Made by a program: the position numbers and the translations under genes
NCBI GenBank assembly: GCA_017886205.1
Contig: JAFNEO010000053.1
Location: 64,126 to 128,125, forward strand
DNA length: 64,000 nucleotides
Source: Candidatus Aminicenantes bacterium
GTDB lineage: Bacteria > Acidobacteriota > Aminicenantia > Aminicenantales > UBA8522
Direction: 5' to 3'
The notes under the pieces: model-generated
What the model was told of the DNA's origin: nothing
What the model saw: the letters and a program-made list of their open reading frames with translations, nothing else
Database searches by the model: none
In this document: positions 28,125-47,658 of the stretch, piece by piece
Position numbering within the stretch: position 1 is the first letter of the stretch
Layout of the letters: every line of letters begins with the position of its first letter

Positions 28125-29792
28125 CTACCGCAGCGTGCCTTCGTAGTGGGCGGTCAGCTGGCGCTTCCGCACGTCCTCGGGGGTGTAAGAGGGGAGCAGC
28201 ACCGGAGCCATACGGTCCGTCTTGATCCGGGCCTTCTTCAGTTCATTCTCATAGGCAGTGATGTGCTTGAGGGACAGCTTGTCCAGCTTCACGTGTTTTG
28301 TGTATTCCGCCGCGTATTTGCCGGCCCTGCGTCCGAAGACGTTATAGTCGAGGACTGAATTTCCCATCAGCCGGTTCCGGCCGTGAACACCGCCCGATGC
28401 TTCGCCGGCGACATACAGGCCGGGGATGTTCGACTCGCACTTGGCGTTGATCTCGACTCCGCCGTTCTGGTAGTGGAGCGAGGGATAGACGAGCATCGGC
28501 TCTTTGGTGATGTCGATCTGGTAGCGGATAAACTGCCGGACCATAGCCGGAAAGTTCTTGTAAAGGTAGCCGGCGCCCTGGATGATGTCGATGAGCGGGG
28601 AGTCCAGCCAGACACCCCACCGGCCGCTCGGAGTCTGAATCCCATTGTGCCTCTCCAAGCATTCCCGGATAAAGGCGGCGCTCTCGACGTCACGGGGTTC
28701 ACGCGGAAAGACAAACAGTTCACCGTGCCTATTGAGCGGCTGTCCCCCGGCGCCCCGGATCTTCTCCGTGATAAGGAAGCCGGCGATCTGCTCGGGAAAG
28801 CTGGCGCCTGTCGGATGATACTGCACCGAGTCCATGTACATGAGCTTGGCTCCGGCCCGGTAGGCCATGATCAGCCCATCGCCCGTCGCACCGTAGTGGT
28901 TCGTTGTGTCGAAACCGCGAATGTGCAGCCGGCCATAGCCGCCCGTAGCGATGATCGTGGCCTTCGCCCTGACCATGAAATATTCTTCAGTTTCCATGTT
29001 GTAGAGGACACCGCCGGCGCAGTGTCCTTTTTTGTCCATGATGAGCTCGACCGTGGGCATGAACTCGAGGACGGTGATCTCGTCGGGATGGTTGCGGACT
29101 TCGTCCATGAGTGTCCGCATGATTATGGCGCCGGTGTAATCCCGGCAGGAATGCATGCGCTTGCGGGAAGTGCCTCCGCCGTGGAGGACGTACATGGAAT
29201 GATCGGGATTTTTGTCCCAGACGACACCCAGGTCTTCCAGCCACTTGACCACTTCGGGACCATCCTCGGTCATGGCGCGGACGAGGTCCGGCTTGTTGTC
29301 GAAGTGCCCGCCCCCCATCGCATCGAGATAATGACGGGTGGGAGAGTCCTTCGCGGGAACGGCCGCCTGCATCCCTCCCTGCGACATCATCGAGTTGGCG
29401 TCGCCCATCCGGAGCTTGGTGGAAATGATGCTCTTGGCGCCGTTCTGCATGGCGATGATGGCCGCGGCGCATCCGGCGCCTCCGCCGCCGACGATCAGGA
29501 TATCGGTTTCGTAATCGGGTTTGTCGAGGTTGAAGAGCTCCGCTCTGATCCGGCTGTGAGACTCCAGGATATCGGCCACCTCGGTCGTGATTTCTTCGCC
29601 CTTATTGGGCCCGATATGGACAACGCGCCGCGATTCTTTCTTGTAATCGGGATGGAACTTGTTCAGGACGTCATCCCGCTCTTCGGCGGTCATCGGCGCA
29701 AAAACGGGTTTCCCGGATTTTTCGAGCTCGAGCCTTTTCTGCCGGGTTTCGTCTACCAGCTTCAATGAATCTCTCATATATTCTGGATACAT
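28125..29792 (-). CDS. fumarate reductase/succinate dehydrogenase-family FAD flavoprotein (SdhA/FrdA/AprA superfamily, soluble)
   Basis: Start re-set to the ATG at 29792 (AAGGAGAG RBS). GGGGAGCAAA dinucleotide-binding motif and a QYHPTG active-site region. No His at the covalent-FAD position. Confidence 0.75.
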   Translation of the reverse strand: MYPEYMRDSLKLVDETRQKRLELEKSGKPVFAPMTAEERDDVLNKFHPDYKKESRRVVHIGPNKGEEITTEVADILESHSRIRAELFNLDKPDYETDILIVGGGGAGCAAAIIAMQNGAKSIISTKLRMGDANSMMSQGGMQAAVPAKDSPTRHYLDAMGGGHFDNKPDLVRAMTEDGPEVVKWLEDLGVVWDKNPDHSMYVLHGGGTSRKRMHSCRDYTGAIIMRTLMDEVRNHPDEITVLEFMPTVELIMDKKGHCAGGVLYNMETEEYFMVRAKATIIATGGYGRLHIRGFDTTNHYGATGDGLIMAYRAGAKLMYMDSVQYHPTGASFPEQIAGFLITEKIRGAGGQPLNRHGELFVFPREPRDVESAAFIRECLERHNGIQTPSGRWGVWLDSPLIDIIQGAGYLYKNFPAMVRQFIRYQIDITKEPMLVYPSLHYQNGGVEINAKCESNIPGLYVAGEASGGVHGRNRLMGNSVLDYNVFGRRAGKYAAEYTKHVKLDKLSLKHITAYENELKKARIKTDRMAPVLLPSYTPEDVRKRQLTAHYEGTLR

Positions 29793-29803
29793 CGGGCTCT
29801 CCT

Positions 29804-30559
29804 TTACTCCGTATCGCGGGCATAGTATCTCTTCTTCAGCACATCCCGCTTCGCACTCATCAGCTCTTTGTATTCCTTGTCGTATTTTTTCTGCTGGATT
29901 TCTTTCAACCTGGCCTCGAGCTCGGGGCTCTTGGGGGCCAGATAGCGTCCGTAGAGCCTTCGGCCAAGTATTCCGACGTTGTAATGGACGATCTCGGCCG
30001 GACAGCGGATGGCGCAAAGCCCGCAGCTCAGGCAGTCGAAGGAGAGGTCCATGACCTTTTCGATGTCACCCCGGATGGCCGCTTGGATGTAGTCCATGAC
30101 CTCAAGGCTCTGGGGACAGGCTTTGGTGCAGGTGTTGCAGGCCACGCAGCGGAAAATCTCCGGGTAGAGGACCTGGAAGGCGGCAACGTTGGGCTCAAGC
30201 TTCTTGATGTCATAGACCGGCTTTTGGGCGGGAATGACGGGCAGCTGGGACAGCCACATCCCCTCCTGGACGAGGGTCGTGCAGGCCAGACCGGTATAGA
30301 TCTTGTAATCGCCGGGCAAGCGGTAGACCGTCGCGCAGGCGCCGCAAAACCCCTCCCGGCAGCCCGCCCCGCGCTTGATCTGGTAGCCGGCGTATTCGAT
30401 GGCGCCCATGATCGTCGCATCGGCGGGGACGCGGTGGGCCTTGCCCATGATATAGACCATGACCATCTCTTTGGGGGGCTCCTGGGGCTTGGTCTTGACC
30501 GGCCGAGGCTTAGCCGGTGCCGCCTTCTTCTTGGCGGGTGCTTTTTTGTTGGCCATCAT
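29804..30559 (-). CDS. SdhB/FrdB-like iron-sulfur subunit ([2Fe-2S] plus two Cys clusters) with a Lys/Pro-rich N-terminal tail
   Basis: CREGFCGACA plant-type [2Fe-2S] motif, CVACNTCTKACP and CLSCGLCAIRCP. ATGATG start with a GGAGAAGGAGA RBS. N-terminal tail ANKKAPAKKKAAPAKPRPVKTKPQEPPKE. Confidence 0.7.
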   Translation of the reverse strand: MMANKKAPAKKKAAPAKPRPVKTKPQEPPKEMVMVYIMGKAHRVPADATIMGAIEYAGYQIKRGAGCREGFCGACATVYRLPGDYKIYTGLACTTLVQEGMWLSQLPVIPAQKPVYDIKKLEPNVAAFQVLYPEIFRCVACNTCTKACPQSLEVMDYIQAAIRGDIEKVMDLSFDCLSCGLCAIRCPAEIVHYNVGILGRRLYGRYLAPKSPELEARLKEIQQKKYDKEYKELMSAKRDVLKKRYYARDTE

Positions 30560-30590
30560 CTCATCTCCTTCTCCATGGTACCGTCTTCTC

Positions 30591-31415
30591 TCAATACTCT
30601 TGCGGGAGTTTCTTGAGGTCCGCCCAGGAATACACGGGGCCGTCCTTGCAGACATAGTGGAAACCGATGTTGCAGCGGCCGCATTTCCCGATCCCGCACT
30701 TCATCTTGTTTTCGACGGTGGTGTAGATTTGTTCGTCCTCGAACTTGAGGTCTTTAAGATTCTTGATGACGAATTTGATCATGATCGGCGGTCCGCAGGT
30801 AATGGCGATCGTGTTGGCGGGGGAGGGCTTCTTTTCCAGGACGTTGGTCGGCACGAACCCGACGAACTCCTTCCAGTCCGGCTCGGCCACGTCGATCGAC
30901 AGGTGAACCGGCATCTGACCCTTCAGGTCCGCGAGCTCGTCTTTGAAGACGATGTCCTTGGACGTTCGGGCTCCATAGATCAGGCTGAGAGCTCCGAATT
31001 CGCTTTTCCGGAGGAGCGCCGTCTGGACGACCGACCAGAGCGGCGCGAGCCCGATCCCGCCGCCGATGAAGACCAGGTTTTTGCCTTGCCATGCATCCAT
31101 CGGGAACCCGTTGCCGTAGGGGCCTCTGACCCCGATGAGGTCGCCGACCTCCATATCGTGCAGGGCGGCTGTGACCCGGCCCGTCCGGAGGATGCTGAAC
31201 TGCAGATAGTCCTTGATGAGCGGGGAAGAGGAGATCGAGATCATCGCTTCCCCTTTGCCGAAGACCGAGAGCATGGCGCACTGCCCGCAGCGGTAGTCGA
31301 AGCGGGCGCCGTTCGCGAACTCGGTGCGGAAGGTCTTGATCGCCCGGGCGCCGACGACCTCATCCTTGGTCTGAACGATCTTGGCCAGCTGAGGAGTATA
31401 AACATTAAGCTCCAT
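30591..31415 (-). CDS. FAD/NAD(P)-binding oxidoreductase with a C-terminal [2Fe-2S] (PyrK/AsrB/FlxA-like)
   Basis: FNR-like fold with a C-terminal CGIGKCGRCNIGFHYVC cluster motif. AAGGTGAG RBS. Confidence 0.7.
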   Translation of the reverse strand: MELNVYTPQLAKIVQTKDEVVGARAIKTFRTEFANGARFDYRCGQCAMLSVFGKGEAMISISSSPLIKDYLQFSILRTGRVTAALHDMEVGDLIGVRGPYGNGFPMDAWQGKNLVFIGGGIGLAPLWSVVQTALLRKSEFGALSLIYGARTSKDIVFKDELADLKGQMPVHLSIDVAEPDWKEFVGFVPTNVLEKKPSPANTIAITCGPPIMIKFVIKNLKDLKFEDEQIYTTVENKMKCGIGKCGRCNIGFHYVCKDGPVYSWADLKKLPQEY

Positions 31416-32454
31416 GGTCTCTCACCTTGTCCAGGACTTTGATGATGTCGATCCCGACCGGACACAGCGTGATGCAGCGGCCGCAGCCGACACACATGAA
31501 CTTGTCATAGACCTGGATGAAATACTGGAATTTATGCAGCAAACGCTGGCGCAGCCGCGAGGCCTTGTCGGGCCGGGGGTTGTGACCAGAGGAATGCATG
31601 GTGAAATCAGGGAACTGGCAGGTGTCCCAGGTCCGGACTCTTTGACCCTTGAGTGGGGAGGGGGATTCGACCTCATCGCCGATATCAAAGCAATGACAGG
31701 ACGGACAAAGATAGGTGCAGATGCCGCAGCGGAGGCAGCTCATCGACTCCTCATCCCAGAGCGGCGAATCGAACATTCCTTTGAGCTTTTGGGCGATTGG
31801 CCGGGCGTCCTTGAGCTGGCGTCTGATCTTCTTTTCCGACTCGGCGTGGGCGGCTTTGACTTGTTTCTTGGCCTCAGGCTTCGGCTCCTCGAAGAGCGCC
31901 TTGGCGGCGGAGATGAGCTTCTCTCCTTTAGCGGTCATCGACTGGACGTAATACCGGTCGCCGAGGTCGGTCAACAGGAGGTCCAATCCCTCTTCGGAAT
32001 GCGGCGAACCTTCCACCGACGTGCAGAAGCAGTTTTCTGAGGGAGGGGTGGTGCAGGCGAACCCGACCAGAGTGGTCTGGTCCCTGCGTTTCCAGTAATA
32101 GACATCCTTGAATTCGCCTCCGAACACTTCGTCTAGCATCCAGGCGGCCCTGGCCTCGCAAGGCCGGGCTCCGATGATGACTGTGGGTTTGACCTCGGGC
32201 AGGACTTCTTTGATCTCCAGGGTTTCCCGGTTACCCGCCAGAGTCTTGGCGAACTCGAGGAAGACCTCCCGCTGGGGGAAAAGGATCTTTTTGGGGGGGA
32301 GGGTGGTCTGGAGGACATCGAGACTGACCTCTCCGCCGTCGGCCTCGAAATAGTTCCAGCGGCCCTCCTCATCTTTTCGGGGGATGTAGACCCTCCAGGA
32401 GTCCAGCTTCTTGACCCATTGGGGAAAGGACTTTTTGGCGAGTATCTTTTCCAT
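31405..32454 (-). CDS. 4Fe-4S dicluster protein (AsrA/HydB/FlxB-like)
   Basis: CLRCGICTYLCPSC and CVGCGRCITLCP motifs. Size and architecture match anaerobic sulfite reductase subunit A-like proteins. Confidence 0.6.
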   Translation of the reverse strand: MEKILAKKSFPQWVKKLDSWRVYIPRKDEEGRWNYFEADGGEVSLDVLQTTLPPKKILFPQREVFLEFAKTLAGNRETLEIKEVLPEVKPTVIIGARPCEARAAWMLDEVFGGEFKDVYYWKRRDQTTLVGFACTTPPSENCFCTSVEGSPHSEEGLDLLLTDLGDRYYVQSMTAKGEKLISAAKALFEEPKPEAKKQVKAAHAESEKKIRRQLKDARPIAQKLKGMFDSPLWDEESMSCLRCGICTYLCPSCHCFDIGDEVESPSPLKGQRVRTWDTCQFPDFTMHSSGHNPRPDKASRLRQRLLHKFQYFIQVYDKFMCVGCGRCITLCPVGIDIIKVLDKVRDHGA

Positions 32455-32458
32455 CGTC

Positions 32459-33490
32459 TTACCTGATGAAATCTTGAGGATCTTCGTCCCGGAAACAGGA
32501 GATGAGGGCCGGAAGGGCGGGGTCGAACCCGACCTCGTAGCCGAAGAGCTCTTTGGCCTCCTTCTCCAGCTTCTTGTTCAGAAACCGCAGGGGGATGTCG
32601 AGCGGGCAGGCCCTTTCGCATTCGCCGCAGTCGATGCAGCGGCCGGCGAGGTGGATGGCCCGGACGAGGTGGTAGACCAGGTTCTCGGAGGACTCCGCCG
32701 ACCTCTGGATCCAGTGGATCCGCTGGGCTTTCTCATCCGCCGTCGTATCGGCGGTCACGGCCAGGTTGATGCTGTCCACTACGCACTCATCGCAGTAGCA
32801 CATCGGGCAGGCCGAGCGGCAGGCGTAGCAGCGGATGCATCTGTCGAGCTGTTCTTTCCAGAAACTCGAGCGATCGGCGGCCGAGAGGGACTCGATCTTT
32901 TCCAGGGAGCCGAAGGGCTTGTCTAGAGGCCTCTTGGTTTTCTCACCGCTCAGGAGGTCATAGATCACCGGGAAATTGGCTTTGCACTCAAGGCATCTCT
33001 CGGCCAGGAGCTCTTCCGCGGCCATCTCGATCTTCCCGTCCTCGGTGGTGACGACGAAACGGTCCTGGGCGTCGACTTCAACCCTCTTAGCCTTTTTCCC
33101 CGCCAGCTTCTTGGCCAGCTTGGCATCATCGACAACGCCCATCTTTTCGCAGGACACGCCCAGGATGTAGACATCACTGCGGTCGATAAACTTTTCCTGC
33201 AGGAGGACGACGACGGCCCGGCTGTCGCATCCCTTGACCATGATTCCCACCGGCCGCTTGTCGGGCTGCTTCTGTCTCGCTTTCCGTCTCTTCTCATCGA
33301 CCAGGAAGCGGACGAGGTTGTGGACGCAGGTGGGGTCCCAGACGAGCTTGTCCACGTCCTCGGGTTTCTTGATGAAGAGGGGAGCGGCCAGCCAGCCATT
33401 GCTGCCGGCGCCGTAGCCGATGATGTATTTGACCTTGCCTTCGCGGAGCAGTTTTTTAGCTTCCTCTTTGAGGTCCTCGATCTTAGCCAT
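32459..33490 (-). CDS. 4Fe-4S dicluster protein (FlxC/HydB-like)
   Basis: Start re-set to the ATG at 33490 (MAKIEDLKEE...), overlapping the MvhD-like stop as TAATG. CIRCYACRSACP and CIDCGECERACP motifs. Confidence 0.55.
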   Translation of the reverse strand: MAKIEDLKEEAKKLLREGKVKYIIGYGAGSNGWLAAPLFIKKPEDVDKLVWDPTCVHNLVRFLVDEKRRKARQKQPDKRPVGIMVKGCDSRAVVVLLQEKFIDRSDVYILGVSCEKMGVVDDAKLAKKLAGKKAKRVEVDAQDRFVVTTEDGKIEMAAEELLAERCLECKANFPVIYDLLSGEKTKRPLDKPFGSLEKIESLSAADRSSFWKEQLDRCIRCYACRSACPMCYCDECVVDSINLAVTADTTADEKAQRIHWIQRSAESSENLVYHLVRAIHLAGRCIDCGECERACPLDIPLRFLNKKLEKEAKELFGYEVGFDPALPALISCFRDEDPQDFIR

Positions 33491-33912: not shown

Positions 33913-33914
33913 GA

Positions 33915-35864
33915 TTAGCCTCCGAGACACGCGTTGATCATTTCGGCAACCTGCTGCTGAGTCAGGTTTTTGACCTGGATGGCCGAGCGCAGGCAGGTGG
34001 CCGTGCAGGTGCCGCAGCCCTCGCAGAGGACCTCGTTGACTTCGACCTTCCCGTCCTTCAGAGTAAGGGCATCATAGGGGCAGACGGCGACACACATCCC
34101 GCATCCCGTGCACAGGTTGCTGATAACCTTGGCTACGGTCGGCGAATGGAACAGCCTATCTTGAGAAAGGATGGCCACGGCCTTGGCCGCGGCGCCGCTG
34201 GCCTGGGCGACGGCTTCAGGTATATCTTTGGGGGCCTGGGCGGCTCCGGCTAAAAACATCCCCGCTGTCACGCTCTCGACCGGCCGCAACTTGGGATGGG
34301 CCTCGGCCAGAAAGCCGTCCTTGTCCAGGGCCAGCTTGAGCTTCTTGGCCAGTTCCTGGGCGCCCGTGGAAGGCCGCATGGCCTGAGCCAGGACGACCAT
34401 ATCGGCGGCGATCTCGATACTCCTGCCGGTTAGGGTGTCGACTCCCCAGACCATGATCTTGCCCTTTTCCTCGAAGACCTTGGAGACCTTGCCGCGGAGG
34501 TAGACGACCCCGTCCTCTTCCACTGCCCGCTGGACGAACTCCTCGTATCCCTTGCCGCCCGAGCGGATGTCGATGTAGAAGATGTAGGCCTGGCCGTCGT
34601 GGACATGGTGTTTGTAGAGCATGGCATGTTTGGCCGTGTACATGCAGCAGATCTTCGAACAGTAGGCGCAATGGTTCTCGGGGTCGCGCGACCCTGAGCA
34701 CTGGATGAAGACGACCTCTTTGGGCTCCTTGTGGTCGGACGGCCGCAGGATCTGACCCATGGTGGGGCCGGAGGCCGAGCATAGTCGCTCGAACTGGAGA
34801 CCGTCGAGGACGTCGGCGTACTTGCCGAACCCGTACTCGGCCATGTTCTCCTTGTCGTAGAGGTCATAGCCGGTGGCCACGATTATGACGCCCACTTCCG
34901 CTTCGATGATCTCAGGCTTCTGGTCGAAGTCGATGGCTTTTGGGTTGCAGACGTCGGCGCACTTGCCGCAGGCGATGGTCGTGAACGGGTCGGGACAGTT
35001 CTTGTCGTCGAGTGTGTAGGATGCCGGGATGGCCTGAGGGAAGGGGATATAGATCGCCCGCCGTCCGGTCAAACCGAGGTCGAACTCGTTGGGCACAACG
35101 ATCGGGCAGACCTTGGTGCATTCATCGCAGAGGGTGCATTTTGCCGGGTCGACATAGGTGGGCTTCTTCAGGATCTTGACCTTGAAGTTGCCGACGTAAC
35201 CGCTGACGTCCTGGACTTCACTGTATGTCATCAGCTTGATCTTGGGGTGCTTGGAAACCTCCACCATCTTTGGCGTCAGGATACATTGCGAGCAGTCCAG
35301 GGTGGGGAAAGTTTCCGACAGCTGGATCATGTGGCCCCCGACAGAGGGGTTCCTCTCTACCAATATCACTTCGAACCCGGTGTTGGCGATGTCGAGCGCG
35401 GCCTGGAGCCCGGATATACCGCCTCCGACGACGAGGGCCCGCCGGGTCACCGGTACGCTCAGAGCGTCCAAGGACTCGTTCTGGCGGACTTTCTCCACTG
35501 CGGACCGCGCAATCTTGGTCGCTTTTTGCGTGGCCTTAGGCTTGTCCTTATGGACCCAGCTGCACTGCTCGCGGATGTTGGCGATTTCGCAGCGGAAGCT
35601 GTTGAGACCGGCGCGCTTGGCGGCATTACGGAAGGTCGTCTCGTGGAGGTTGGGCGAGCAGCAGGCGACAACGACGCCGTCCAGCTTTTTCTCCCTGATG
35701 GCCTGCTCGATCAGGTTTTGACCCGGATCGGAGCACATATAGACATAGTCCTCGGCGTGAACCACACTGGGGTGCTTGGCTAGCTCCTCGGCGACTTTCT
35801 TGACGTCCACCGTGCCGGCAATGTTGATGCCGCAGTGGCAGATAAAGACTCCAGTCCGTTTCAT
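33915..35864 (-). CDS. hdrA: heterodisulfide reductase subunit A (FAD, multi-FeS)
   Basis: N-terminal VFICHCGINIAG, GGGISG FAD motif, an internal four-Cys insertion and a C-terminal 2x[4Fe-4S] ferredoxin domain. 649 aa. ATGA overlap with the upstream kor gamma gene. Confidence 0.9.
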   Translation of the reverse strand: MKRTGVFICHCGINIAGTVDVKKVAEELAKHPSVVHAEDYVYMCSDPGQNLIEQAIREKKLDGVVVACCSPNLHETTFRNAAKRAGLNSFRCEIANIREQCSWVHKDKPKATQKATKIARSAVEKVRQNESLDALSVPVTRRALVVGGGISGLQAALDIANTGFEVILVERNPSVGGHMIQLSETFPTLDCSQCILTPKMVEVSKHPKIKLMTYSEVQDVSGYVGNFKVKILKKPTYVDPAKCTLCDECTKVCPIVVPNEFDLGLTGRRAIYIPFPQAIPASYTLDDKNCPDPFTTIACGKCADVCNPKAIDFDQKPEIIEAEVGVIIVATGYDLYDKENMAEYGFGKYADVLDGLQFERLCSASGPTMGQILRPSDHKEPKEVVFIQCSGSRDPENHCAYCSKICCMYTAKHAMLYKHHVHDGQAYIFYIDIRSGGKGYEEFVQRAVEEDGVVYLRGKVSKVFEEKGKIMVWGVDTLTGRSIEIAADMVVLAQAMRPSTGAQELAKKLKLALDKDGFLAEAHPKLRPVESVTAGMFLAGAAQAPKDIPEAVAQASGAAAKAVAILSQDRLFHSPTVAKVISNLCTGCGMCVAVCPYDALTLKDGKVEVNEVLCEGCGTCTATCLRSAIQVKNLTQQQVAEMINACLGG

Positions 35865-36493
35865 TGTTTTGCCTTTCGCGGCGGATTTTTCTTGATATCA
35901 GGCAGCGGCTGATTTTTCAGGGGCTTCAGCTCTTTTTGGGGCTTTTCTTTTTCTTTGGCCAAGAGCTCGACCCCGTAGTCATAGCCTTTCTCGAACGCTC
36001 GGATGTTGAGCTCTAAGAATCTCTTGGGGACCAGGCCGGGCAGAGCTTTTTTCATGGCCTCGGGGGAGACCACCCGGCTGATGCCGGTGAAAAACCCGAG
36101 CATGACCAGGTTGGCGAAGATGCGGTTCCCCATCTCCTCGGCGAACCGGGTTGAGGGGACGCCGTAGGATTTGATCTGGCCGCGCGCCGGCTTCAGCCGA
36201 ACTAGGTCCGTATCATAAATCAGGATCCCGTCCGCACGGAGATCCGGCTCGTATTTCTCGTAGGCGTCCTGGGACATGGAGACGAGGATTTCCGGACGCG
36301 TGATGTACGGATAGAGGACGCGGTCTTCTGAGATCACGACCTGGGAGCTGCAGGCGCTTCCGCGGGCTTCCGGGCCGAAGCTCTGGGTCATGGTCCCGAA
36401 TTTATTATCAAAGAGCGAAACGGCCTTGCCGGTGATCAAACCGCAGCGGATGATCCCCTGGCCGCCATAGCCGGAAAAACGGATCTCGTTCAT
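35861..36493 (-). CDS. korC: 2-oxoacid:ferredoxin oxidoreductase gamma subunit
   Basis: GYGGQGI motif typical of POR/KOR/VOR gamma subunits. ATGA overlap with the beta subunit. Confidence 0.8.
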   Translation of the reverse strand: MNEIRFSGYGGQGIIRCGLITGKAVSLFDNKFGTMTQSFGPEARGSACSSQVVISEDRVLYPYITRPEILVSMSQDAYEKYEPDLRADGILIYDTDLVRLKPARGQIKSYGVPSTRFAEEMGNRIFANLVMLGFFTGISRVVSPEAMKKALPGLVPKRFLELNIRAFEKGYDYGVELLAKEKEKPQKELKPLKNQPLPDIKKNPPRKAKQ

Positions 36494-37359
36494 GGTTTCA
36501 CTCCATAGGGCACGTATTTATCGCCCAGGGTCTTCTGGAGATGAGTGTTCATGCATTCGAGGTAGGTAGGCTTGTCCCTGTCCACGAACTTGCCGACGAT
36601 GATCTTTCCCTGGAAATCGATGGGCACAGTGCGCGTGTCGGCACCGTGCCTCATCTCGGATTTGTCATAGTAATATTTGAGCAGGTTTAATCCGTCGCCC
36701 AGCCTGTTCCGTCGGGCGTAGAGAGTGACGCAGGGTGTGATGACCTCGATAAAGGAGAACCCTCTCTTGACCAGCGCCTCTTGGATGGACTTGGTGACCC
36801 GGCGGATATGGAGGGAGGTCCAACGGGCGACATAACTTGCGCCGCAGGCGTCGGCGAGGTAGGCCAGGTTGAATGGGTATTCAAAGTTCCCATAGGGCGC
36901 CGTCGAAAGGTTGGCCGTAAGCGGGGTCGTGGGTGCCACCTGACCTCCCGTCATGGCGTAATTGAAATTGTTGACGCAGATGACCAGGATGTCCATATTC
37001 CGGCGGGCGGCATGGATGAGATGGTTGCCGCCGATGCCGGCGATATCCCCGTCGCCGCTGAAGACGACCACCTTGAGCTCGGGGTTGGCCAGCTTGAGCC
37101 CTGTGGCAAAGGGAATGGCGCGGCCGTGGGTGCTGTGGAACGAATCGAACTTGACGTATCCGGCCACGCGTCCCGTGCATCCGATGCCGGAGACGACAGC
37201 GAGCTTGTTGAGGTCGAGCTCGCTCTTCTTCAGCGCCTCGACGAACGAGGTGACCACTGTCCCTATGCCGCAGCCGGGGCACCAGATGTGGGGGATGCGG
37301 TCCATCCGGAGGAAATCCTCCATCGGGTTTCTTTCTTCTGGGCGTTCCTCTTCTTTCAT
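36490..37359 (-). CDS. korB: 2-oxoacid:ferredoxin oxidoreductase beta subunit (TPP-binding)
   Basis: WCPGCG motif and the GDGD..IGGNH thiamine-diphosphate-binding region. Confidence 0.9.
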   Translation of the reverse strand: MKEEERPEERNPMEDFLRMDRIPHIWCPGCGIGTVVTSFVEALKKSELDLNKLAVVSGIGCTGRVAGYVKFDSFHSTHGRAIPFATGLKLANPELKVVVFSGDGDIAGIGGNHLIHAARRNMDILVICVNNFNYAMTGGQVAPTTPLTANLSTAPYGNFEYPFNLAYLADACGASYVARWTSLHIRRVTKSIQEALVKRGFSFIEVITPCVTLYARRNRLGDGLNLLKYYYDKSEMRHGADTRTVPIDFQGKIIVGKFVDRDKPTYLECMNTHLQKTLGDKYVPYGVKP

Positions 37360-38522
37360 CGGGCTGCCTCCTTGATGGCTTTCAGGATGTCGTCGGGATC
37401 GTGGACCCAGCCGCCGCAGTGGGGGACGCCGATGGCCGGGGCCCGGCCGAAGGCGCAGCGCTCGACCTCGCGCCGGATCTGTCCCAGGTTGATCTCGGGC
37501 ACAACAAAGGCCTTGACTTTCTTGGCCAGTTCTTTGATCCGGTCTTCGGGAAAAGGCCAGACCGTGACCAGCCGGAGGGTCCCCACTTTGATGCCGGCTT
37601 TGCGGGCCTCCTGGACGGCCTTGACCGAAACACGTGAAGTGATCCCGTAGGAGATGACCACAATCTCGGCGTTGTCGGTCTGGTCCTCCCGGTAGTCGAT
37701 GATTTTAGGAGCGTTCTTGGTGATTTTATCGACGAGATGGTGGACGCACCAGTCCTGGGCTTCGGCGTTTATCGCCGGGTAGCCGCGCTCATCATGAGTC
37801 AGGCCGGTCGTGTGGAAACGGTAGCCGTCGCCCGCCTTGACCATGAAAGGGACCAGGTCTTTGTCGGGCTTGTAGGGGAGGTATTTTTGTCTGGGTCCCA
37901 CGTACCATTTTCGCTCGACCACTTCGATCTGGTCGGCGGGCGGGATGACCACTTTTTCGTGCATGTGGCCCACACATTCGTCGGTCATGATGAAGACGGG
38001 AACCCGGTAGGTCTCCGCCAGATTAAAGGCTTTGATGGTCAGGTCGAAGCACTCCTGCGGTGAATCAGGGGAGAGGGCGATGATCTCATAGTCGCCATGC
38101 GAGCCGAATTTGACCTGCAACATGTCCGCCTGCCCGACCAGCGTCGGGAGCCCGGTGGACGGGCCGCCCCTCTGGACGTTGGCGATGACGAGCGGCGTCT
38201 CCATCATGGCCGCGAGGCCGATGTTCTCCATCATCAAGGAGAACCCCGGTCCGGAGGTGACCGTCATCGACTTTTGCCCGCCCCAGGAAGCACCGATCAG
38301 GGCCGTGATCGAGGCGATTTCGTCCTCCATCTGAATAAAGATTCCCCCGACGAAGGGGATGCGCTCGGCGAAGCGTTCGGCGGTCTCTGTAGAGGGCGTG
38401 ATCGGATATCCGGCGAAAAATCGGCAACCGGCCGCCAGACTGCCCTCGGCGATGGCGAAGTCGCCGTCGAGGTAGTGAGCTCCGGTCAGGACTCCTTTAG
38501 GGTCTGCTTTCAGTTTTCTCAC
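37356..38522 (-). CDS. korA: 2-oxoacid:ferredoxin oxidoreductase alpha subunit
   Basis: GYPITPS..E motif. GTG start at 38522 with a strong AAGAGGAGGAAG RBS; it overlaps the delta gene by 26 nt. Confidence 0.9.
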
Positions 38523-38775
38523 CTTCTTCCTCCTCTTTTTTGAGAGTGACGAATATGGCGAATTCCGGGCAGATGGCTTCGCAGAGCTGGCAATAGATGC
38601 ACTCTTCCTCTTTTACGACCCGGGGCGCATGGTAGCCTTTTTTGTTGTACTCCTCGGAGAGCTCGAGGACGTCGCGGGGGCAGTACTCGACACAAAAGCC
38701 GCAGCCTTTGCATCTCTGCTTGTTGATGTGGATATCGCCCTTTTTTGCCTTGAGATTGCCGAAGTGGATGGTCAT
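38497..38775 (-). CDS. korD: 2-oxoacid:ferredoxin oxidoreductase delta subunit (2x[4Fe-4S] ferredoxin)
   Basis: [12 protein letters not shown] and [12 protein letters not shown] motifs. 92 aa. Confidence 0.8.
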
Positions 38776-38782
38776 GGTTCCC

Positions 38783-39661
38783 TCAGATCAGTCCCTTCTG
38801 CCGCAGGAGCGGTTGGGGGTCGACATAGTGGAGATCAAGACGCAGGGACTCTTCTCCGCAGCCCATGGCGATGGCCAAGAGCTGGGTGAAATAGAGGATC
38901 GGGATCTTTTTGAACTCGGAGTACTTCTTGGCCGTTTCCTTCTGCCGGTGGTCGAGGTTGAAGGCGCAGAGCGGACAGCTGACGGAGACGACCTCCGCTC
39001 CCCGGCCGCGGGCCGAAGTCAGGATGCTGAATGTCCGGTCGGCGACGGTCTCCGGCTTGTCCACCGTCAGGTAGGCGCCGCAGCACTCCGTCTTATAGGG
39101 AAAGTCGACGGGGTTTGCCCCGAGGACGGCCATCAGGTCATCGAGGACGGTCGGGTTCTCCATGTCGTCGAGGCCGATCTCTTTGGGCCGGACAAGTAGG
39201 CAGCCGTAATAGCTGGCCACTTTAAGGTTGTGGAGAGGCTTTTTAACCTTCTTGCCGATCGCCTCGAACTTGACGTCCTCCCGGAGCAACTCCAGCAGGT
39301 GCCGGACTTTAACGTCTCCCCGGTAGGCGATCTTCTCCTCGTCCATGAACTTGTGGATCTTCTGCAGGCTGTCCGGGTCAGCCTTGATCCTTTCGTTGAC
39401 CCGTTTGAGGGTGTTGTAACACATCGCGCAGAGGGTCATGACCGAATCCGCCTGCTCTTCCTTCACCCGGATCAGGTTGCGGACTGAAGCCAGATGGTGC
39501 ATCAGGTCGTCGGTGGTCAGGGAGTAGACGGTCCCGCAGCAGTTCCAGCGCCGGAGCTCTTGGACGTCGACCCCGAGCTCGCGCAGCGCGCAGAGAGCGG
39601 AGTCCTCGAAGTTCTTGGCGTTGCTCTTCAGTGTACAACCCGGATAGTAGCTAACTTTCAT
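38783..39661 (-). CDS. hdrB: heterodisulfide reductase subunit B (two CCG domains)
   Basis: Two cysteine-rich CCG repeats (CxnCCGxmCxxC: YPGC...CCGTVYSL...CAMC and YYGC...CCGAY...CPLC). Confidence 0.9.
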
Positions 39662-39720
39662 GGGGATTCATTCTCCGGATGAAGTCGGATGATCGTCGCA
39701 TTTGGTATGATCAACGAAAA

Positions 39721-40128
39721 TCACGAGGTGAATTTTCGAAAGCTGCTGATCAGAGCGATGGCCGGGACGCTAGCCTTATCCTCGGCGCTGAGCTTGGGAA
39801 CTTCAACATGATCCTTCCTCTTGCGCAGCAGGACCTGGCGCACGGCCTCCATCACTTCGGCTATCTTTATCCCCTTGGGGCAGCGGACGTTGCAGGTGTA
39901 GCACGAGGCACAAATCCAAACCGACTTTGCTTCGAGCAACTCCTCCTTGAAACCGAGCTGGGCATAGCGGATGACCTGGTTGGGAAGGATGTCCATCTCA
40001 GCGACTGCCGGACAGCCGGCCGAGCATTTACCGCACTGATAGCAGGCCAGCAGCTTCTGGCCGCTGATCTCCTCGATCTTCCTCACAAAGTCGTCCCTGA
40101 TCTTCTTCTTGGAGAGGATGGTTCTCAT
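39721..40128 (-). CDS. hdrC: heterodisulfide reductase subunit C (2x[4Fe-4S])
   Basis: CYQCGKCSAGCP and CASCYTCNVRCP motifs. AAAGGA RBS. Confidence 0.85.
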   Translation of the reverse strand: MRTILSKKKIRDDFVRKIEEISGQKLLACYQCGKCSAGCPAVAEMDILPNQVIRYAQLGFKEELLEAKSVWICASCYTCNVRCPKGIKIAEVMEAVRQVLLRKRKDHVEVPKLSAEDKASVPAIALISSFRKFTS

Positions 40129-40205
40129 TTTTTCCTTTTCTCTTTCCGGCTTGAAAGGATCGATACCCGATATAAAGATGATATTCTAGGCCAAAATGAC
40201 CCTTC

Positions 40206-40234
40206 AGTAAATCACAATTTTTTTTTCCTGTCAA
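40206..40234 (-). promoter_or_regulatory. candidate promoter of the hdr-kor-flx-sdh operon (TTGACA-N17-TTTACT)
   Basis: A -35 TTGACA (reverse complement of tgtcaa at 40229-40234) overlaps the stop of the upstream hydrolase gene. The -10 is weak (4/6 match). Confidence 0.25.
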
Positions 40235-44328: not shown

Positions 44329-44352
44329 GATCTTCTCGATTTCTCGTACGTA

Positions 44353-45249: not shown

Positions 45250-45359
45250 CCTGATATCAAGGTACAATTCTCTTCACAACCTGTCAACTTCAGGACGCAG
45301 CGATCCGCTGGCGAATTTGATAAACGGGTCGTTTTGTATTAAATTAATCGGGAAGAAAG

Positions 45360-47620: not shown

Positions 47621-47658
47621 CGGCTAACCCGTCCGGTCATCTCTGCTGCCCCCCCTGC

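What the first reader, a model, noticed from the sequence alone, without database searches (positions are those of the whole stretch)
28125..40234. 13-gene operon fusing HdrABC, MvhD/Flx-like subunits, a 4-subunit 2-oxoacid:ferredoxin oxidoreductase and a soluble SdhAB-like pair
On the minus strand, in order: hdrC, hdrB, korD, korA, korB, korC, hdrA, mvhD/flxD-like, two 4Fe-4S dicluster proteins (FlxC/FlxB/AsrA-like), a PyrK/FlxA/AsrB-like FAD-NAD(P) protein, an SdhB-like FeS protein and an SdhA/FrdA-like flavoprotein. Most junctions are ATGA, TAATG or 2-12 nt apart, so the genes are one translationally coupled unit. Known Flx-Hdr clusters in sulfate reducers are arranged flxABCD-hdrABC and contain no 2-oxoacid oxidoreductase. 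Here the order is inverted, kor sits between hdrB and hdrA, and a membrane-anchor-less fumarate-reductase-like module is added. Flx-Hdr is known from sulfate reducers; a ferredoxin-reducing Kor, an NAD(P)H module, a bifurcating HdrA and an SdhAB-like terminal module in one coupled unit suggests a soluble electron bifurcating/confurcating complex of undescribed substrate logic, for example 2-oxoacid + NAD(P)H-linked reduction of fumarate or a disulfide.
Basis: partly seen in the sequence, partly recalled or inferred. Interest (0 to 1): 0.88.

Follow-up and report, generated by a model that had tools for sequence, protein, structure and literature searches.

The report
Known rTCA electron-bifurcation operon, Aminicenantes copy
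This is a real 13-gene operon in an uncultured Aminicenantes bacterium that joins an NAD(P)H-fed electron-splitting Hdr/Flx module to a soluble fumarate reductase and a 2-oxoglutarate:ferredoxin oxidoreductase; the same gene arrangement has already been described, but never tested biochemically, in tubeworm symbionts and purple sulfur bacteria.

Summary
Thirteen tightly packed minus-strand genes (28125-40128) encode HdrC, HdrB, KorDABC, HdrA, MvhD/FlxD, FlxC/B/A-like proteins, an SdhB/TfrB-like FeS protein and a TfrA-like flavoprotein. The organism is an Aminicenantes bacterium, and other Aminicenantes genomes have the same order.

The "undescribed" claim does not hold. Rubin-Blum 2019 and Mitchell 2024 describe korABCD sitting between hdrBC and hdrA, with flx and tfrAB, in Endoriftia and Chromatiaceae rTCA clusters. 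They report operon-like co-expression and propose bifurcation to fumarate reductase and OGOR. A Thiodictyon locus differs from the window only by moving tfrBA to the front and adding a rubrerythrin gene.

Across the 81 related loci, tfrBA nearly always sits beside hdrCB. Flx and a [NiFe] hydrogenase never occur together, which suggests alternative donor modules. Fumarase, sucCD and kor are frequent neighbours.

Most likely mechanism (inferred): NAD(P)H feeds FlxABC, MvhD and then the HdrA flavin. High-potential electrons run through HdrC/HdrB and TfrB' to TfrA and fumarate. Low-potential electrons supply Kor for 2-oxoglutarate synthesis. No biochemical test exists for any member. Verdict: new member of a known, uncharacterised kind; moderate interest.

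The parts
40129..40230 (-). 102-nt leader between the upstream alpha/beta-hydrolase gene and hdrC; holds a sigma-70-like hexamer pair (40211-40183, TTTACT-17-TAGAAT)
   Evidence: The promoter-like count in the region is no higher than in shuffles (4 found versus 3.6 expected), so this is only a candidate. No Rfam family matches.
39721..40128 (-). hdrC: 135-aa protein with two 4Fe-4S motifs
   Evidence: Pfam Fer4_8/Fer4_17. NCBIfam CoB_CoM_SS_C 83.7 bits and QmoC N-terminus, both below cutoff. It matches positions 118-241 of the TfrB profile PRK06259. Homologues in related loci are 135-139 aa.
38783..39661 (-). hdrB: 292-aa protein with two CCG domains (sites for non-cubane 4Fe-4S clusters)
   Evidence: Pfam CCG, 2 stretches. 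NCBIfam HdrB 185.5 bits and MFR anchor SdhE 160.8 bits, both below cutoff. It matches TfrB profile positions 262-479. Full-length match to solved HdrB chains 8rvu_b and 5odc_B.
38497..38775 (-). korD: 92-aa 2x[4Fe-4S] ferredoxin-like delta subunit
   Evidence: Pfam Fer4/Fer4_7. The best NCBIfam hits are OGOR_delta (79 bits) and OorD (66 bits), below cutoff.
37356..38522 (-). korA: 388-aa 2-oxoacid:ferredoxin oxidoreductase alpha subunit (GTG start, 26-nt overlap with korD)
   Evidence: Pfam POR_N + PFOR_II. NCBIfam NF006412 scores 557 bits, above its cutoff of 411; the 2-oxoglutarate synthase alpha model scores 385 bits; Por/Vor models score about 100 bits or less. Closest solved chains are 1yd7_A and the 2-oxoglutarate synthase 8ys5_A.
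36490..37359 (-). korB: 289-aa TPP-binding beta subunit
   Evidence: Pfam TPP_enzyme_C. The best NCBIfam hit is the OGOR beta subunit, 236 bits. ATGA overlap with korA.
35861..36493 (-). korC: 210-aa gamma subunit
   Evidence: Pfam POR. NCBIfam 2-oxoacid:ferredoxin oxidoreductase gamma, 191 bits. ATGA overlaps on both sides.
33915..35864 (-). hdrA: 649-aa FAD and multi-FeS subunit, the presumed bifurcating flavoprotein
   Evidence: NCBIfam HdrA2 830 bits and HdrA 655 bits. Collinear full-length match to the solved methanogen HdrA 5odc_A: 733 bits, residues 3-638 versus 5-641. 32 Cys.
33490..33912 (-). mvhD/flxD: 140-aa MvhD-family 2Fe-2S adaptor
   Evidence: Pfam FlpD 179.9 bits, full length. 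It matches the C-terminal MvhD part of the HdrA2 profile. Natural mvhD::flxC and hdrA::mvhD fusions occur in related loci.
32459..33490 (-). flxC-like: 343-aa FeS protein (TAATG junction with mvhD)
   Evidence: Pfam Fer4 dicluster motifs only. No NCBIfam family. 17 Cys. It is conserved next to mvhD in all flx-type loci.
31405..32454 (-). flxB-like: 349-aa FeS protein resembling AsrA and sulfhydrogenase beta
   Evidence: Pfam Fer4_22 115.8 bits. NCBIfam HydB 195 bits, ShyB 191 bits, AsrA 142 bits, all below cutoff.
30591..31415 (-). flxA-like: 274-aa NAD(P)H/FAD-binding protein with a 2Fe-2S cluster (resembles AsrB, PyrK and sulfhydrogenase gamma)
   Evidence: Pfam NAD_binding_1 + DHODB_Fe-S_bind. 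NCBIfam PRK08345 241 bits, HydG 197 bits, AsrB 185 bits, below cutoff.
29804..30559 (-). tfrB'/sdhB-like: 251-aa FeS protein with a Lys/Pro/Ala-rich N-terminal tail, then 2Fe-2S and 2x[4Fe-4S] motifs; no CCG domain
   Evidence: Pfam Fer4 dicluster only. Weak match to TfrB profile positions 22-88 and to SdhB chains (1yq3_B, E 4e-5). Twelve Cys are conserved (eight invariant, four nearly invariant because one row, L001, is a truncated gene call) across 10 homologues from 6 or more phyla. A natural TfrB'::TfrA fusion exists (P0122).
28125..29792 (-). tfrA-like flavoprotein: 555 aa, with an extra N-terminal segment of about 95 aa, an FrdA/SdhA-type FAD and capping domains, and a short C-terminus
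   Evidence: Pfam FAD_binding_2 256.7 bits (residues 97-480), with no Succ_DH_flav_C. The best NCBIfam hit is TfrA, 334.8 bits, below its cutoff of 718. Residues matching E. coli FrdA H232/R287/H355/R390 are H326/R346/H440/R474 and are invariant. The covalent-FAD His44 position is an invariant Asn133.

Best explanation
The 13 genes are one operon for a soluble flavin-based electron-bifurcating system that serves two redox steps of the reductive TCA branch.

Proposed path (inferred from homology and context, not shown):
1. NAD(P)H is oxidised by the FlxA-like FAD/2Fe-2S protein.
2. Electrons pass through the FlxB/FlxC-like FeS proteins and MvhD to the FAD of HdrA.
3. The HdrA flavin splits each electron pair.
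4. High-potential electrons go through HdrC and the CCG protein HdrB to the SdhB-like FeS protein, and then to the non-covalent FAD of the TfrA-like flavoprotein, which reduces fumarate to succinate. HdrC + HdrB + TfrB' together correspond to a split version of archaeal TfrB.
5. Low-potential electrons leave through the ferredoxin domains of HdrA. They supply the four-subunit Kor, either through free ferredoxin or directly through KorD, for reductive carboxylation of succinyl-CoA to 2-oxoglutarate.

Net reaction: 2 NAD(P)H + fumarate + succinyl-CoA + CO2 -> 2 NAD(P)+ + succinate + 2-oxoglutarate + CoA. This is about -30 kJ/mol by my own calculation from textbook potentials (+33, -320 and about -520 mV).
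For: Shown here:
- All 13 products carry the expected domains.
- HdrA is full-length and collinear with structurally characterised bifurcating HdrA. HdrB has both CCG domains.
- The flavoprotein keeps all four fumarate-binding and catalytic His/Arg residues and lacks the His needed for covalent FAD. From prior knowledge of E. coli FrdA H44 mutants, this favours fumarate reduction over succinate oxidation.
- TfrB' has no thiol-oxidising CCG domain and no donor module of its own. The TfrB profile is tiled by TfrB' (positions 22-88), HdrC (118-241) and HdrB (262-479).

Context in 81 related loci from more than 15 phyla:
- tfrB-tfrA are adjacent in 79 loci.
- Of the 30 loci with full 10-kb flanks, 26 have hdrCB, 23 hdrA, 21 mvhD, 19 kor and 14 flx.
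- Flx (25 loci) and [NiFe] hydrogenase mvhGA (10 loci) never co-occur. This suggests exchangeable donors on an HdrA-MvhD hub.
- Class I fumarase is a neighbour in 18 loci, sucCD in about 13 and malic enzyme in about 10. L034 reads fumAB-hdrCB-hdrA-mvhD-flxCBA-tfrBA-sucCD-korABC (a korD match, seen in the sister loci L048 and L070, fell below my threshold there). Gallionella L011 has PFOR and PPDK directly upstream.

Fusions: TfrB'::TfrA, mvhD::flxC and hdrA::mvhD.

Literature:
- The same arrangement in Endoriftia is co-expressed, including the intergenic regions (PMC11636981).
- The same model was proposed in PMC6315080.
- The kor-less version lies in the succinate operon of a succinate producer (PMC7282089).
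Against: - No member of this cluster type has been purified or assayed. Every electron-transfer step is inferred.
- None of the subunits except KorA reaches its NCBIfam curated cutoff.
- Kor sits at different positions in different phyla: before hdrC, between hdrB and hdrA, or after tfrA. No Kor-Hdr fusion was found in the 81 loci. Physical integration of Kor is therefore unsupported beyond gene order.
- In Endoriftia, tfrAB did not follow the differential-expression pattern of the rest of the cluster.
- The window has no other TCA genes. Published metagenomic reconstructions describe the Aminicenantes populations they studied as fermentative heterotrophs, so the physiological role here (biosynthetic reductive branch, electron sink or CO2 fixation) is open.
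- NADH versus NADPH specificity is undetermined.
- The promoter/terminator scan is uninformative.
Confidence: 0.6

Rival explanations
1. Three separate enzymes that are only co-regulated: a Flx-HdrABC complex reducing ferredoxin plus an unknown disulfide, a free-standing Kor, and a soluble fumarate reductase fed by some other donor. The operon would reflect pathway co-expression, not a shared electron path.
For: Each module occurs without the others in some loci, and the position of kor varies between phyla. There are no Kor-Hdr fusions. Four-subunit Kor enzymes normally work with free ferredoxin (general knowledge). tfrAB departs from the expression pattern of the other cluster genes in Endoriftia.
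Against: TfrA/TfrB' have no donor module or anchor of their own. They sit next to hdrCB in 26 of 30 complete loci, often as a bare hdrC-hdrB-tfrB-tfrA unit. HdrC, HdrB and TfrB' tile the single TfrB profile. No candidate disulfide carrier such as DsrC is encoded in the operon.
Confidence: 0.17
2. A thiol-mediated two-enzyme relay, the first variant offered by Rubin-Blum et al. Flx-HdrABC reduces a heterodisulfide or a DsrC-like protein, and a true thiol:fumarate reductase re-oxidises that thiol while reducing fumarate.
For: The flavoprotein's best named relative is TfrA. HdrB keeps both CCG domains, which form the disulfide-reducing site in methanogen Hdr. The idea is stated in PMC6315080 Text S1 and PMC11636981.
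Against: The TfrB-like protein lacks the CCG domains that carry out thiol oxidation in archaeal TfrB. Only one CCG protein is encoded, so it cannot serve both as reductase and as oxidase in two separate enzymes. No carrier gene is present in the operon or conserved in the 81 loci.
Confidence: 0.1
3. The system runs oxidatively as a confurcating machine. Low-potential electrons from 2-oxoglutarate oxidation and high-potential electrons from succinate oxidation are merged on HdrA to reduce NAD(P)+. This would allow an oxidative TCA segment without quinones in a fermentative heterotroph.
For: Published metagenomic reconstructions describe the Aminicenantes populations they studied as heterotrophic fermenters. 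Kor enzymes are reversible (general knowledge). Hdr-type bifurcation is reversible in principle.
Against: The flavoprotein has Asn in place of the His that carries covalent FAD. By prior knowledge, non-covalent flavin enzymes of this family reduce fumarate but oxidise succinate poorly. The reverse reaction is about +30 kJ/mol under standard conditions (own calculation). Neighbours such as PFOR + PPDK, and the ACL genes in the published proteobacterial rTCA clusters, point to the reductive direction.
Confidence: 0.07
4. The flavoprotein is not a fumarate reductase. It would act on another substrate, such as L-aspartate or another enoate or unsaturated acid, and the operon would serve a different pathway.
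For: It scores below the cutoff of every named family (TfrA 335 bits against a cutoff of 718). It has a unique N-terminal segment of about 95 aa and lacks the usual C-terminal domain. The catalytic residues are shared with L-aspartate oxidase (and prior knowledge).
Against: It is obligately paired, and sometimes fused, with an SdhB-like FeS subunit. Fumarase, sucCD, malic enzyme and kor recur as neighbours. The kor-less version is the only annotated fumarate reductase in the 'succinate operon' of a succinate-producing Clostridium relative (sequence homology to that protein was not checked here).
Confidence: 0.06

Closest known systems
rTCA gene cluster of tubeworm symbionts (Ca. Endoriftia), Thioflavicoccus mobilis and related Chromatiaceae: tfrAB-rbr-hdrCB-korDABC-hdrA-flxDCBA (Rubin-Blum 2019, PMC6315080; Mitchell 2024, PMC11636981)
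   Same: The same 13 protein families are present. The block hdrC-hdrB-korD-korA-korB-korC-hdrA-mvhD-flxC-flxB-flxA is in identical order; I verified this on a Thiodictyon locus. The Gallionellales versions show 74% TfrA, about 69% HdrA and about 68% KorA identity to the window. In NJ trees of TfrA, HdrA and KorA the proteobacterial clade is sister to the Aminicenantes clade.
   Different: In the window, tfrBA lies at the 3' end instead of the 5' end, a cyclic permutation. There is no rubrerythrin gene. The operon is not embedded among aclAB, acn, idh, mdh, pntAB or rnf genes; its flanks are housekeeping genes. The host is an uncultured, presumably heterotrophic Aminicenantes bacterium rather than a sulfur-oxidising autotroph. 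The T. mobilis and Endoriftia sequences themselves were not retrieved.
'Succinate operon' of Pseudoclostridium thermosuccinogenes: fumarate hydratase, 7-gene Flx-Hdr, 2-gene fumarate reductase (PMC7282089 and the preprint cited there)
   Same: It has a 7+2 layout of Hdr/Flx genes followed by a two-subunit soluble fumarate reductase. The same layout is seen here in Sporomusa rhizae L078 and Clostridium L061, whose TfrA is 55% identical to the window's. It was likewise proposed to couple NADH:fumarate reduction to ferredoxin reduction.
   Different: It has no kor genes, and hdrB precedes hdrC. Homology of the P. thermosuccinogenes proteins to the window's was inferred from layout only, not from sequence.
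FlxABCD-HdrABC of Desulfovibrio vulgaris (Ramos et al. 2015; known to me through citations)
   Same: The same seven protein families are present: an NAD(P)H-binding FlxA, FeS proteins FlxB and FlxC, the MvhD-like FlxD, and HdrA/B/C. It is likewise proposed to bifurcate from NADH.
   Different: The order in Desulfovibrio is flxABCD-hdrABC, contiguous and next to an alcohol dehydrogenase gene, and the proposed high-potential acceptor is DsrC. Here the order is reversed and split by kor, and a fumarate reductase pair replaces any disulfide carrier.
MvhAGD-HdrABC of methanogens (solved structures 5odc, 8rvu, 7bkb)
   Same: HdrA (733 bits, full length), HdrB (about 137-158 bits) and MvhD are clear homologues. 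In 10 related loci the Flx genes are replaced by mvhG/mvhA hydrogenase genes, as in methanogens.
   Different: The donor here is an NAD(P)H module rather than a hydrogenase. The acceptor is probably fumarate through an extra FeS/flavoprotein pair rather than CoM-S-S-CoB. HdrC is short, at 135 aa.
Thiol:fumarate reductase TfrAB of Methanothermobacter (Heim et al. 1998, cited)
   Same: TfrA is the best-scoring named family for the flavoprotein. The TfrB profile is covered piecewise by TfrB', HdrC and HdrB. Both are soluble and lack a membrane anchor.
   Different: TfrB is one polypeptide with CCG domains, whereas here it is split over three genes. The flavoprotein has an extra N-terminal segment and a truncated C-terminus. 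Scores fall far below the equivalog cutoffs. The electron source is probably HdrA rather than free thiols.
Five-subunit soluble NADH-dependent fumarate reductase of Hydrogenobacter thermophilus, and type E SdhABE / methylmenaquinol:fumarate reductase (both from my own memory; not tested here apart from the NCBIfam SdhE hit)
   Same: These are soluble or CCG-protein-associated fumarate reductases used in, or near, the rTCA cycle. The window's HdrB scores 160.8 bits against the SdhE 'anchor' model.
   Different: Neither has HdrA, MvhD or Kor as partners, and no bifurcation is proposed for them. No sequence comparison with the Hydrogenobacter enzyme was possible here.

Membership tests
Kor-Hdr-Flx-Tfr rTCA cluster (Rubin-Blum 2019 / Mitchell 2024) | korABCD located between hdrBC and hdrA, on the same strand | tested here: met
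   Window order is hdrC-hdrB-korD-korA-korB-korC-hdrA. [quoted passage not shown] The order is identical in the Thiodictyon locus.
Kor-Hdr-Flx-Tfr rTCA cluster (Rubin-Blum 2019 / Mitchell 2024) | flx (FlxDCBA-like) and tfrAB-like genes in the same co-directional cluster | tested here: met
   tfrBA is at the 3' end here and at the 5' end in Proteobacteria.
Kor-Hdr-Flx-Tfr rTCA cluster (Rubin-Blum 2019 / Mitchell 2024) | Proteins orthologous to the proteobacterial ones | tested here: met
   Identity to the Gallionellales loci is TfrA 74%, HdrA 67-69%, KorA 67-68% and MvhD 68-71%. Sister-clade placement in three NJ trees without bootstrap. The T. mobilis and Endoriftia sequences themselves were not retrieved.
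Kor-Hdr-Flx-Tfr rTCA cluster (Rubin-Blum 2019 / Mitchell 2024) | Embedded among other rTCA genes (aclAB, acn, idh, mdh) | tested here: not met
   No TCA or ACL genes lie in the 64-kb window. The flanks are a BNR-repeat protein, a hydrolase, tRNA synthetases, glycine cleavage genes and similar. The rest of the genome could not be examined.
FlxABCD-HdrABC NADH dehydrogenase/heterodisulfide reductase | FlxA with an NAD(P)H/FAD-binding fold and a 2Fe-2S cluster; FlxB and FlxC as FeS proteins; FlxD as an MvhD homologue | tested here: met
   NAD_binding_1 + DHODB_Fe-S_bind; Fer4_22; Fer4 motifs; FlpD at 180 bits. This is domain-level evidence only; no comparison with D. vulgaris sequences was made.
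FlxABCD-HdrABC NADH dehydrogenase/heterodisulfide reductase | Contiguous flxABCD-hdrABC order, with DsrC or another disulfide as acceptor | tested here: not met
   The order is reversed and interrupted by kor. No DsrC-like gene is present in the operon.
FlxABCD-HdrABC NADH dehydrogenase/heterodisulfide reductase | NADH-dependent, bifurcating reduction of ferredoxin | not testable with these tools
   Requires an enzyme assay.
Bifurcating HdrABC (methanogen type) | Full-length HdrA with FAD and ferredoxin domains; HdrB with two CCG motifs; HdrC with two 4Fe-4S clusters | tested here: met
   HdrA residues 3-638 align to 5odc_A residues 5-641 at 733 bits. HdrB has 2 CCG stretches and a full-length PDB match. 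HdrC has 8 Cys and Fer4_8. All scores fall below the NCBIfam equivalog cutoffs.
Thiol:fumarate reductase TfrAB | TfrB as a single subunit with C-terminal HdrB-like CCG domains (the thiol oxidation site) | tested here: not met
   The 251-aa FeS protein has a 2Fe-2S motif, 2x[4Fe-4S] motifs and no CCG domain. The CCG and HdrC-like parts are separate genes at the other end of the operon.
Thiol:fumarate reductase TfrAB | TfrA-type flavoprotein at equivalog level | tested here: not met
   NF004900 scores 334.8 bits against a cutoff of 718. There is an extra N-terminal segment of about 95 aa and no Succ_DH_flav_C domain.
SdhA/FrdA fumarate reductase flavoprotein superfamily | Catalytic His/Arg set (E. 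coli FrdA H232, R287, H355, R390) | tested here: met
   H326, R346, H440 and R474 align to these residues and are invariant in 10 diverse and 20 close homologues.
SdhA/FrdA fumarate reductase flavoprotein superfamily | His for covalent 8-alpha-FAD attachment (needed for succinate oxidation) | tested here: not met
   The position of FrdA His44 is Asn133, which is invariant.
[quoted passage not shown] | Alpha, beta, gamma and delta subunits of the Kor/Oor clade rather than Por/Vor/Ior | tested here: met
   KorA passes NF006412 (557 bits against a cutoff of 411). OGOR/Oor models are the next best for all four subunits, and Por/Vor/Ior models score far lower. PDB neighbours are 1yd7 and the 2-oxoglutarate synthase 8ys5. 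sucCD lies next to kor in several loci.
[quoted passage not shown] | 2-oxoglutarate specificity, and operation in the carboxylating direction | not testable with these tools
   The specific OGOR equivalog cutoffs are not reached. Needs an assay.

The most novel reading that the evidence does not exclude
All 13 products assemble into one soluble supercomplex in which Kor is wired directly, through KorD, to the low-potential exit of HdrA. Bifurcation of NAD(P)H electrons would then drive reductive carboxylation of succinyl-CoA without a free ferredoxin pool, paid for by fumarate reduction two steps earlier in the same pathway. This would be a stoichiometrically matched 'rTCA redox engine'. In Aminicenantes it could underlie unrecognised CO2 fixation or a reversed-oxidative TCA cycle. 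Aminicenantes-like bacteria would also be the likely source of the version acquired by sulfur-oxidising Proteobacteria.
Probability: 0.25. Interest if true: 0.8.

Novelty: new member of a known kind. Interest (0 to 1): 0.45.

Why it matters
Fumarate reduction without quinones, and the strongly uphill 2-oxoglutarate synthase step, are the two awkward redox reactions of the reductive TCA cycle. A bifurcating module that uses the first to pay for the second would change energy budgets for carbon fixation and for anaerobic fermentation.

This window adds three things:
- The arrangement is fixed and highly conserved in Aminicenantes, a widespread uncultured sediment and subsurface phylum usually described as fermentative.
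- The core unit (HdrCB-TfrBA, with HdrA-MvhD) is present in more than 15 phyla of Bacteria and Archaea. NAD(P)H and H2 donor modules appear interchangeable, and fumarase, sucCD and kor are frequent neighbours.
- The Aminicenantes and proteobacterial versions are each other's closest relatives, which points to transfer of the whole cluster between these lineages.

None of this replaces the missing biochemistry.

Tried and rejected
- AlphaFold2 model of the flavoprotein, built from a 20-sequence alignment: mean pLDDT 54, with the catalytic regions below 50. Too poor for a fold search, so the structure of the N-terminal segment remains unknown.
- Rfam scan of the whole window: no hits.
- Promoter/terminator scan: promoter-like sites are no more frequent than in shuffles, and the terminator-like hits on the operon strand all lie inside coding sequence, except a weak one just downstream of tfrA within the convergent gene. 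It therefore says nothing about transcript structure.
- Search for Kor-Hdr, Kor-Tfr or MvhD-TfrB gene fusions in 81 loci: none found; only mvhD::flxC, korB::korC and hdrA::mvhD.
- Attempt to retrieve the Thioflavicoccus or Endoriftia proteins by cluster look-up: this returned marine Rhodospirillaceae MAGs instead. A Thiodictyon (Chromatiaceae) locus was used as a proxy.
- Koendjbiharie and van Kranenburg preprint: not held in the library.
- Literature searches for this cluster in Aminicenantes: nothing relevant.
- hdrC extended to 40234, or read through its TGA stop: rejected. The reading frame is closed and homologues are 135-139 aa.
- The upstream alpha/beta-hydrolase gene as part of the operon: rejected. 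There is a 102-nt gap, and no such gene is called at that position in the related loci whose upstream ORFs were listed.

Full report
**Observation.** The minus strand between 28125 and 40128 carries thirteen consecutive ORFs. All have strong family matches:
- HdrC: two 4Fe-4S motifs.
- HdrB: two CCG domains.
- KorD, KorA, KorB, KorC. KorA passes the NCBIfam 2-oxoacid:acceptor oxidoreductase alpha model (557 bits against a cutoff of 411). OGOR/Oor models are the next best for all four subunits, and Por/Vor/Ior models score far lower.
- HdrA: 830 bits to the HdrA2 model.
- An MvhD-family protein: FlpD, 180 bits.
- A dicluster FeS protein with no named family (FlxC-like).
- An AsrA/sulfhydrogenase-beta-like FeS protein (FlxB-like).
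- An AsrB/PyrK/sulfhydrogenase-gamma-like NAD(P)H-binding protein with a 2Fe-2S motif (FlxA-like).
- A 251-aa FeS protein.
- A 555-aa FAD_binding_2 flavoprotein whose best named relative is TfrA (335 bits, cutoff 718).

Ten of the twelve junctions are overlaps or gaps of 11 nt or less. These include three ATGA overlaps and one TAATG. The other two gaps are 59 nt (hdrC/hdrB) and 31 nt (flxA/tfrB). hdrC starts at 40128; the stretch up to 40234 is an out-of-frame 68-aa ORF, and the upstream hydrolase gene ends at 40231. No product has a credible membrane helix, and no SdhC/D-like gene is adjacent.

**Whose genome, and is the unit conserved?** The flavoprotein has hundreds of near-identical relatives (85-100% identity). 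The sources name nearly all of them as Aminicenantes. A 4.28-Mb Aminicenantes contig (L001) and six further Aminicenantes loci (L002-L004, L006, L007, L079) carry the genes in the same order, with unrelated flanks. GC content is uniform across the window. The rest of the window encodes housekeeping and signalling genes and no other TCA-cycle enzymes.

**Already described.** A full-text search found Rubin-Blum et al. 2019 (PMC6315080). They report that korABCD and tfrAB are 'interspersed' with flxABCD-hdrABC in the rTCA clusters of tubeworm symbionts, Thioflavicoccus mobilis and an aquifer MAG. [quoted passage not shown] Mitchell et al. [quoted passage not shown] They show co-expression that includes the intergenic regions, except that tfrAB departs from the pattern of the rest. 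A 2023 preprint reports the cluster in Bipolaricaulia. A kor-less form (fumarase, seven Flx-Hdr genes, two fumarate reductase genes) is the 'succinate operon' of Pseudoclostridium thermosuccinogenes, which has been proposed to couple fumarate reduction to ferredoxin reduction.

I checked the correspondence directly on a Chromatiaceae (Thiodictyon) contig. Its order is tfrB-tfrA-rubrerythrin-hdrC-hdrB-korD-korA-korB-korC-hdrA-mvhD-flxC-flxB-flxA. The window differs only in having tfrBA at the other end and in lacking rubrerythrin. No paper in the library describes the cluster in Aminicenantes. None reports purification or an assay of any member.

**Distribution and context.** A profile of the flavoprotein subfamily, meaning those relatives that share the N-terminal segment, found at least 598 loci among species-representative genomes. 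I mapped the 13 window proteins onto the best 80 of these loci plus L001.
- tfrB-tfrA are adjacent in 79 of the 81 loci.
- Of the 30 loci with full 10-kb flanks, 26 have hdrCB, 23 hdrA, 21 mvhD, 19 kor and 14 flx. Eleven have all five modules.

The gene orders differ between groups:

| Group | Order |
|---|---|
| Gallionellales / Nitrosomonadales | as in Thiodictyon |
| Cloacimonadota | korDABC-hdrCB-hdrA-mvhD-tfrBA |
| Thermoplasmata | korDABC-hdrA-mvhD-(mvhGA)-hdrCB-tfrBA |
| Desulfobacterota | (fumAB)-hdrCB-hdrA-mvhD-flxCBA-tfrBA-sucCD-korDABC |
| Sporomusa / Clostridium | hdrBC-hdrA-mvhD-flxCBA-tfrBA |
| Bathyarchaeia and others | a bare hdrCB-tfrBA, or hdrCB-tfrBA followed by hdrA |

Pfam confirmed the following neighbours:
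- class I fumarase alpha and beta;
- succinyl-CoA synthetase beta and alpha;
- PFOR plus pyruvate phosphate dikinase (Gallionella);
- malic enzyme;
- [NiFe] hydrogenase small and large subunits.

Counted over all 81 loci, fumarase occurs in 18, sucCD in about 13, malic enzyme in about 10 and mvhGA in 10. None of the 10 hydrogenase-bearing loci has flx, and none of the 25 flx-bearing loci has mvhGA. Natural fusions are TfrB'::TfrA, mvhD::flxC and hdrA::mvhD. No Kor-Hdr fusion was found. The 80 loci are those most similar to the query, so these fractions are not unbiased frequencies.

**What the parts say about mechanism.**
- HdrA aligns end to end with the structurally characterised bifurcating HdrA of methanogens (733 bits). 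HdrB does likewise.
- In the flavoprotein, the residues aligned to E. coli FrdA H232, R287, H355 and R390 are invariant. The His that carries covalent FAD is an invariant Asn. By prior knowledge, non-covalent flavin in this family supports fumarate reduction but not efficient succinate oxidation.
- The flavoprotein has an extra N-terminal segment of about 95 aa with a conserved FHPDY...GxNxGE motif. It lacks the usual C-terminal domain.
- The FeS partner has twelve conserved Cys, arranged as 2Fe-2S plus 2x[4Fe-4S] motifs, and no CCG domain. It therefore lacks the thiol-oxidising site that defines archaeal TfrB.
- The NCBIfam TfrB profile is covered piecewise by this protein (positions 22-88), by HdrC (118-241) and by HdrB (262-479). 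HdrC + HdrB + TfrB' therefore look like a split TfrB. This fits the recurrent bare hdrC-hdrB-tfrB-tfrA unit.

**Best-supported mechanism.** This is inferred, not shown.
1. An exchangeable donor, either Flx with NAD(P)H or Mvh with H2, feeds MvhD and then the HdrA flavin.
2. The high-potential branch runs HdrC -> HdrB -> TfrB' -> TfrA-FAD -> fumarate.
3. The low-potential branch produces reduced ferredoxin, or reduces KorD directly, for 2-oxoglutarate synthesis.

With textbook potentials the overall reaction is about -30 kJ/mol (my own calculation). It consumes fumarate and succinyl-CoA 1:1, which matches flux through the reductive branch.

I put about 0.75 on HdrCB-TfrBA being one electron path. 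I put about 0.6 on the whole statement, and about 0.25-0.3 on Kor being physically part of the complex rather than linked through free ferredoxin.

**Rivals.**
- A merely co-regulated set of independent enzymes. For: the variable position of kor, the absence of fusions and the divergent tfrAB expression in Endoriftia. Against: TfrBA has no donor of its own.
- A thiol or DsrC relay. Against: there is only one CCG protein and no carrier gene.
- An oxidative, confurcating role. Against: the non-covalent FAD and the thermodynamics.
- A substrate other than fumarate. Against: the FeS partner and the fumarase/sucCD/kor neighbourhood.

**Evolution.** Neighbour-joining trees of TfrA, HdrA and KorA, without bootstrap, each place the proteobacterial clade as sister to the Aminicenantes clade. 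Cross-phylum identities are 67-74%, against 66% or less for other phyla in most cases. The two groups also share the block order. This suggests transfer of the whole cluster between an Aminicenantes-like lineage and Proteobacteria. It is consistent with, and more specific than, the 'distant bacterial clade' donor proposed in PMC6315080.

**Verdict.** The finding is real and well read at the gene level. It is a new (Aminicenantes) member of a cluster type already described and modelled in the literature, not an undescribed architecture. That cluster type is still biochemically uncharacterised, so it remains a worthwhile target. Cultured carriers are better entry points than this uncultured organism. 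Things that led nowhere (a poor AlphaFold model, an empty Rfam scan, an uninformative promoter/terminator scan, and failed retrieval of the T. mobilis sequences and of the 2019 preprint) are listed separately.

Noticed in passing
L079:1-21644 (MAG labelled 'uncultured Eubacteriales'): A mosaic operon. hdrB through flxA are Aminicenantes-type (65-87% identity to the window), but the tfrB-tfrA pair is only 57% and 53% identical. In the NJ tree the pair sits on a long branch outside the Aminicenantes clade, in the part of the tree holding the Anaerolineae and archaeal sequences. This suggests the terminal reductase pair was swapped as a module.
   Followed up: partly
L017, L018, L021, L022, L024, L026, L031, L054, L071, L077 versus all flx-bearing loci: [NiFe] hydrogenase genes (mvhG/mvhA-like) and flxCBA never co-occur next to the hdrA-mvhD-tfrBA core: 10 loci versus 25 loci, with no overlap. 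This looks like alternative H2 and NAD(P)H donor modules.
   Followed up: partly
window 29508-29792 (flavoprotein residues 1-95) and P0121-P0143: The flavoprotein subfamily has a conserved N-terminal segment of about 95 aa (motif FHPDY...GxNxGE) that is absent from SdhA, FrdA, NadB and TfrA. It also lacks the usual C-terminal helical domain. The function is unknown; it may be a docking element. The AlphaFold model was too poor to help.
   Followed up: partly
P0122 (727 aa, from the representative search): A natural fusion of the TfrB-like FeS protein to the N-terminus of the flavoprotein.
   Followed up: no
L009-L013 and L082 (between tfrA and hdrC): A rubrerythrin gene is inserted between tfrA and hdrC only in the proteobacterial versions of the cluster. 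It may be an oxygen-protection add-on in microaerobic hosts. It is absent from the window and from other anaerobe loci.
   Followed up: partly
window 29804-30559 (TfrB-like residues 1-38): A Lys/Pro/Ala-rich, low-complexity N-terminal tail precedes the 2Fe-2S domain. Its length and sequence vary between homologues, and it is missing in the Sporomusa and Clostridium versions.
   Followed up: no
window 41066-45267 (minus strand): Directly upstream on the same strand lie a 727-aa polytopic membrane protein with a spermidine-synthase domain, a radical SAM protein (373 aa) and a DUF362 protein (304 aa). A 730-aa ORF sits in the same upstream position in L020, but I did not test whether it is homologous.
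   Followed up: no
window 17553-22050 (plus strand): A glycine cleavage gene set: gcvT, a 136-aa ORF that was not scanned (possibly gcvH), and split gcvP subunits 1 and 2. It is flanked by the arginyl-tRNA synthetase gene (15508-17457) on one side and the glycyl-tRNA synthetase beta subunit gene (22759-24987) on the other.
   Followed up: no
window 46679-51096 (minus strand): A 1145-aa hybrid histidine kinase with multiple PAS domains, a GAF domain and two receiver domains, followed by a response regulator with a GGDEF domain.
   Followed up: no
L001:9215-9814: The tfrB homologue on the 4.28-Mb Aminicenantes contig is called as a truncated 199-aa product whose C-terminus goes out of frame. This is probably an assembly indel rather than a real pseudogene.
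   Followed up: no
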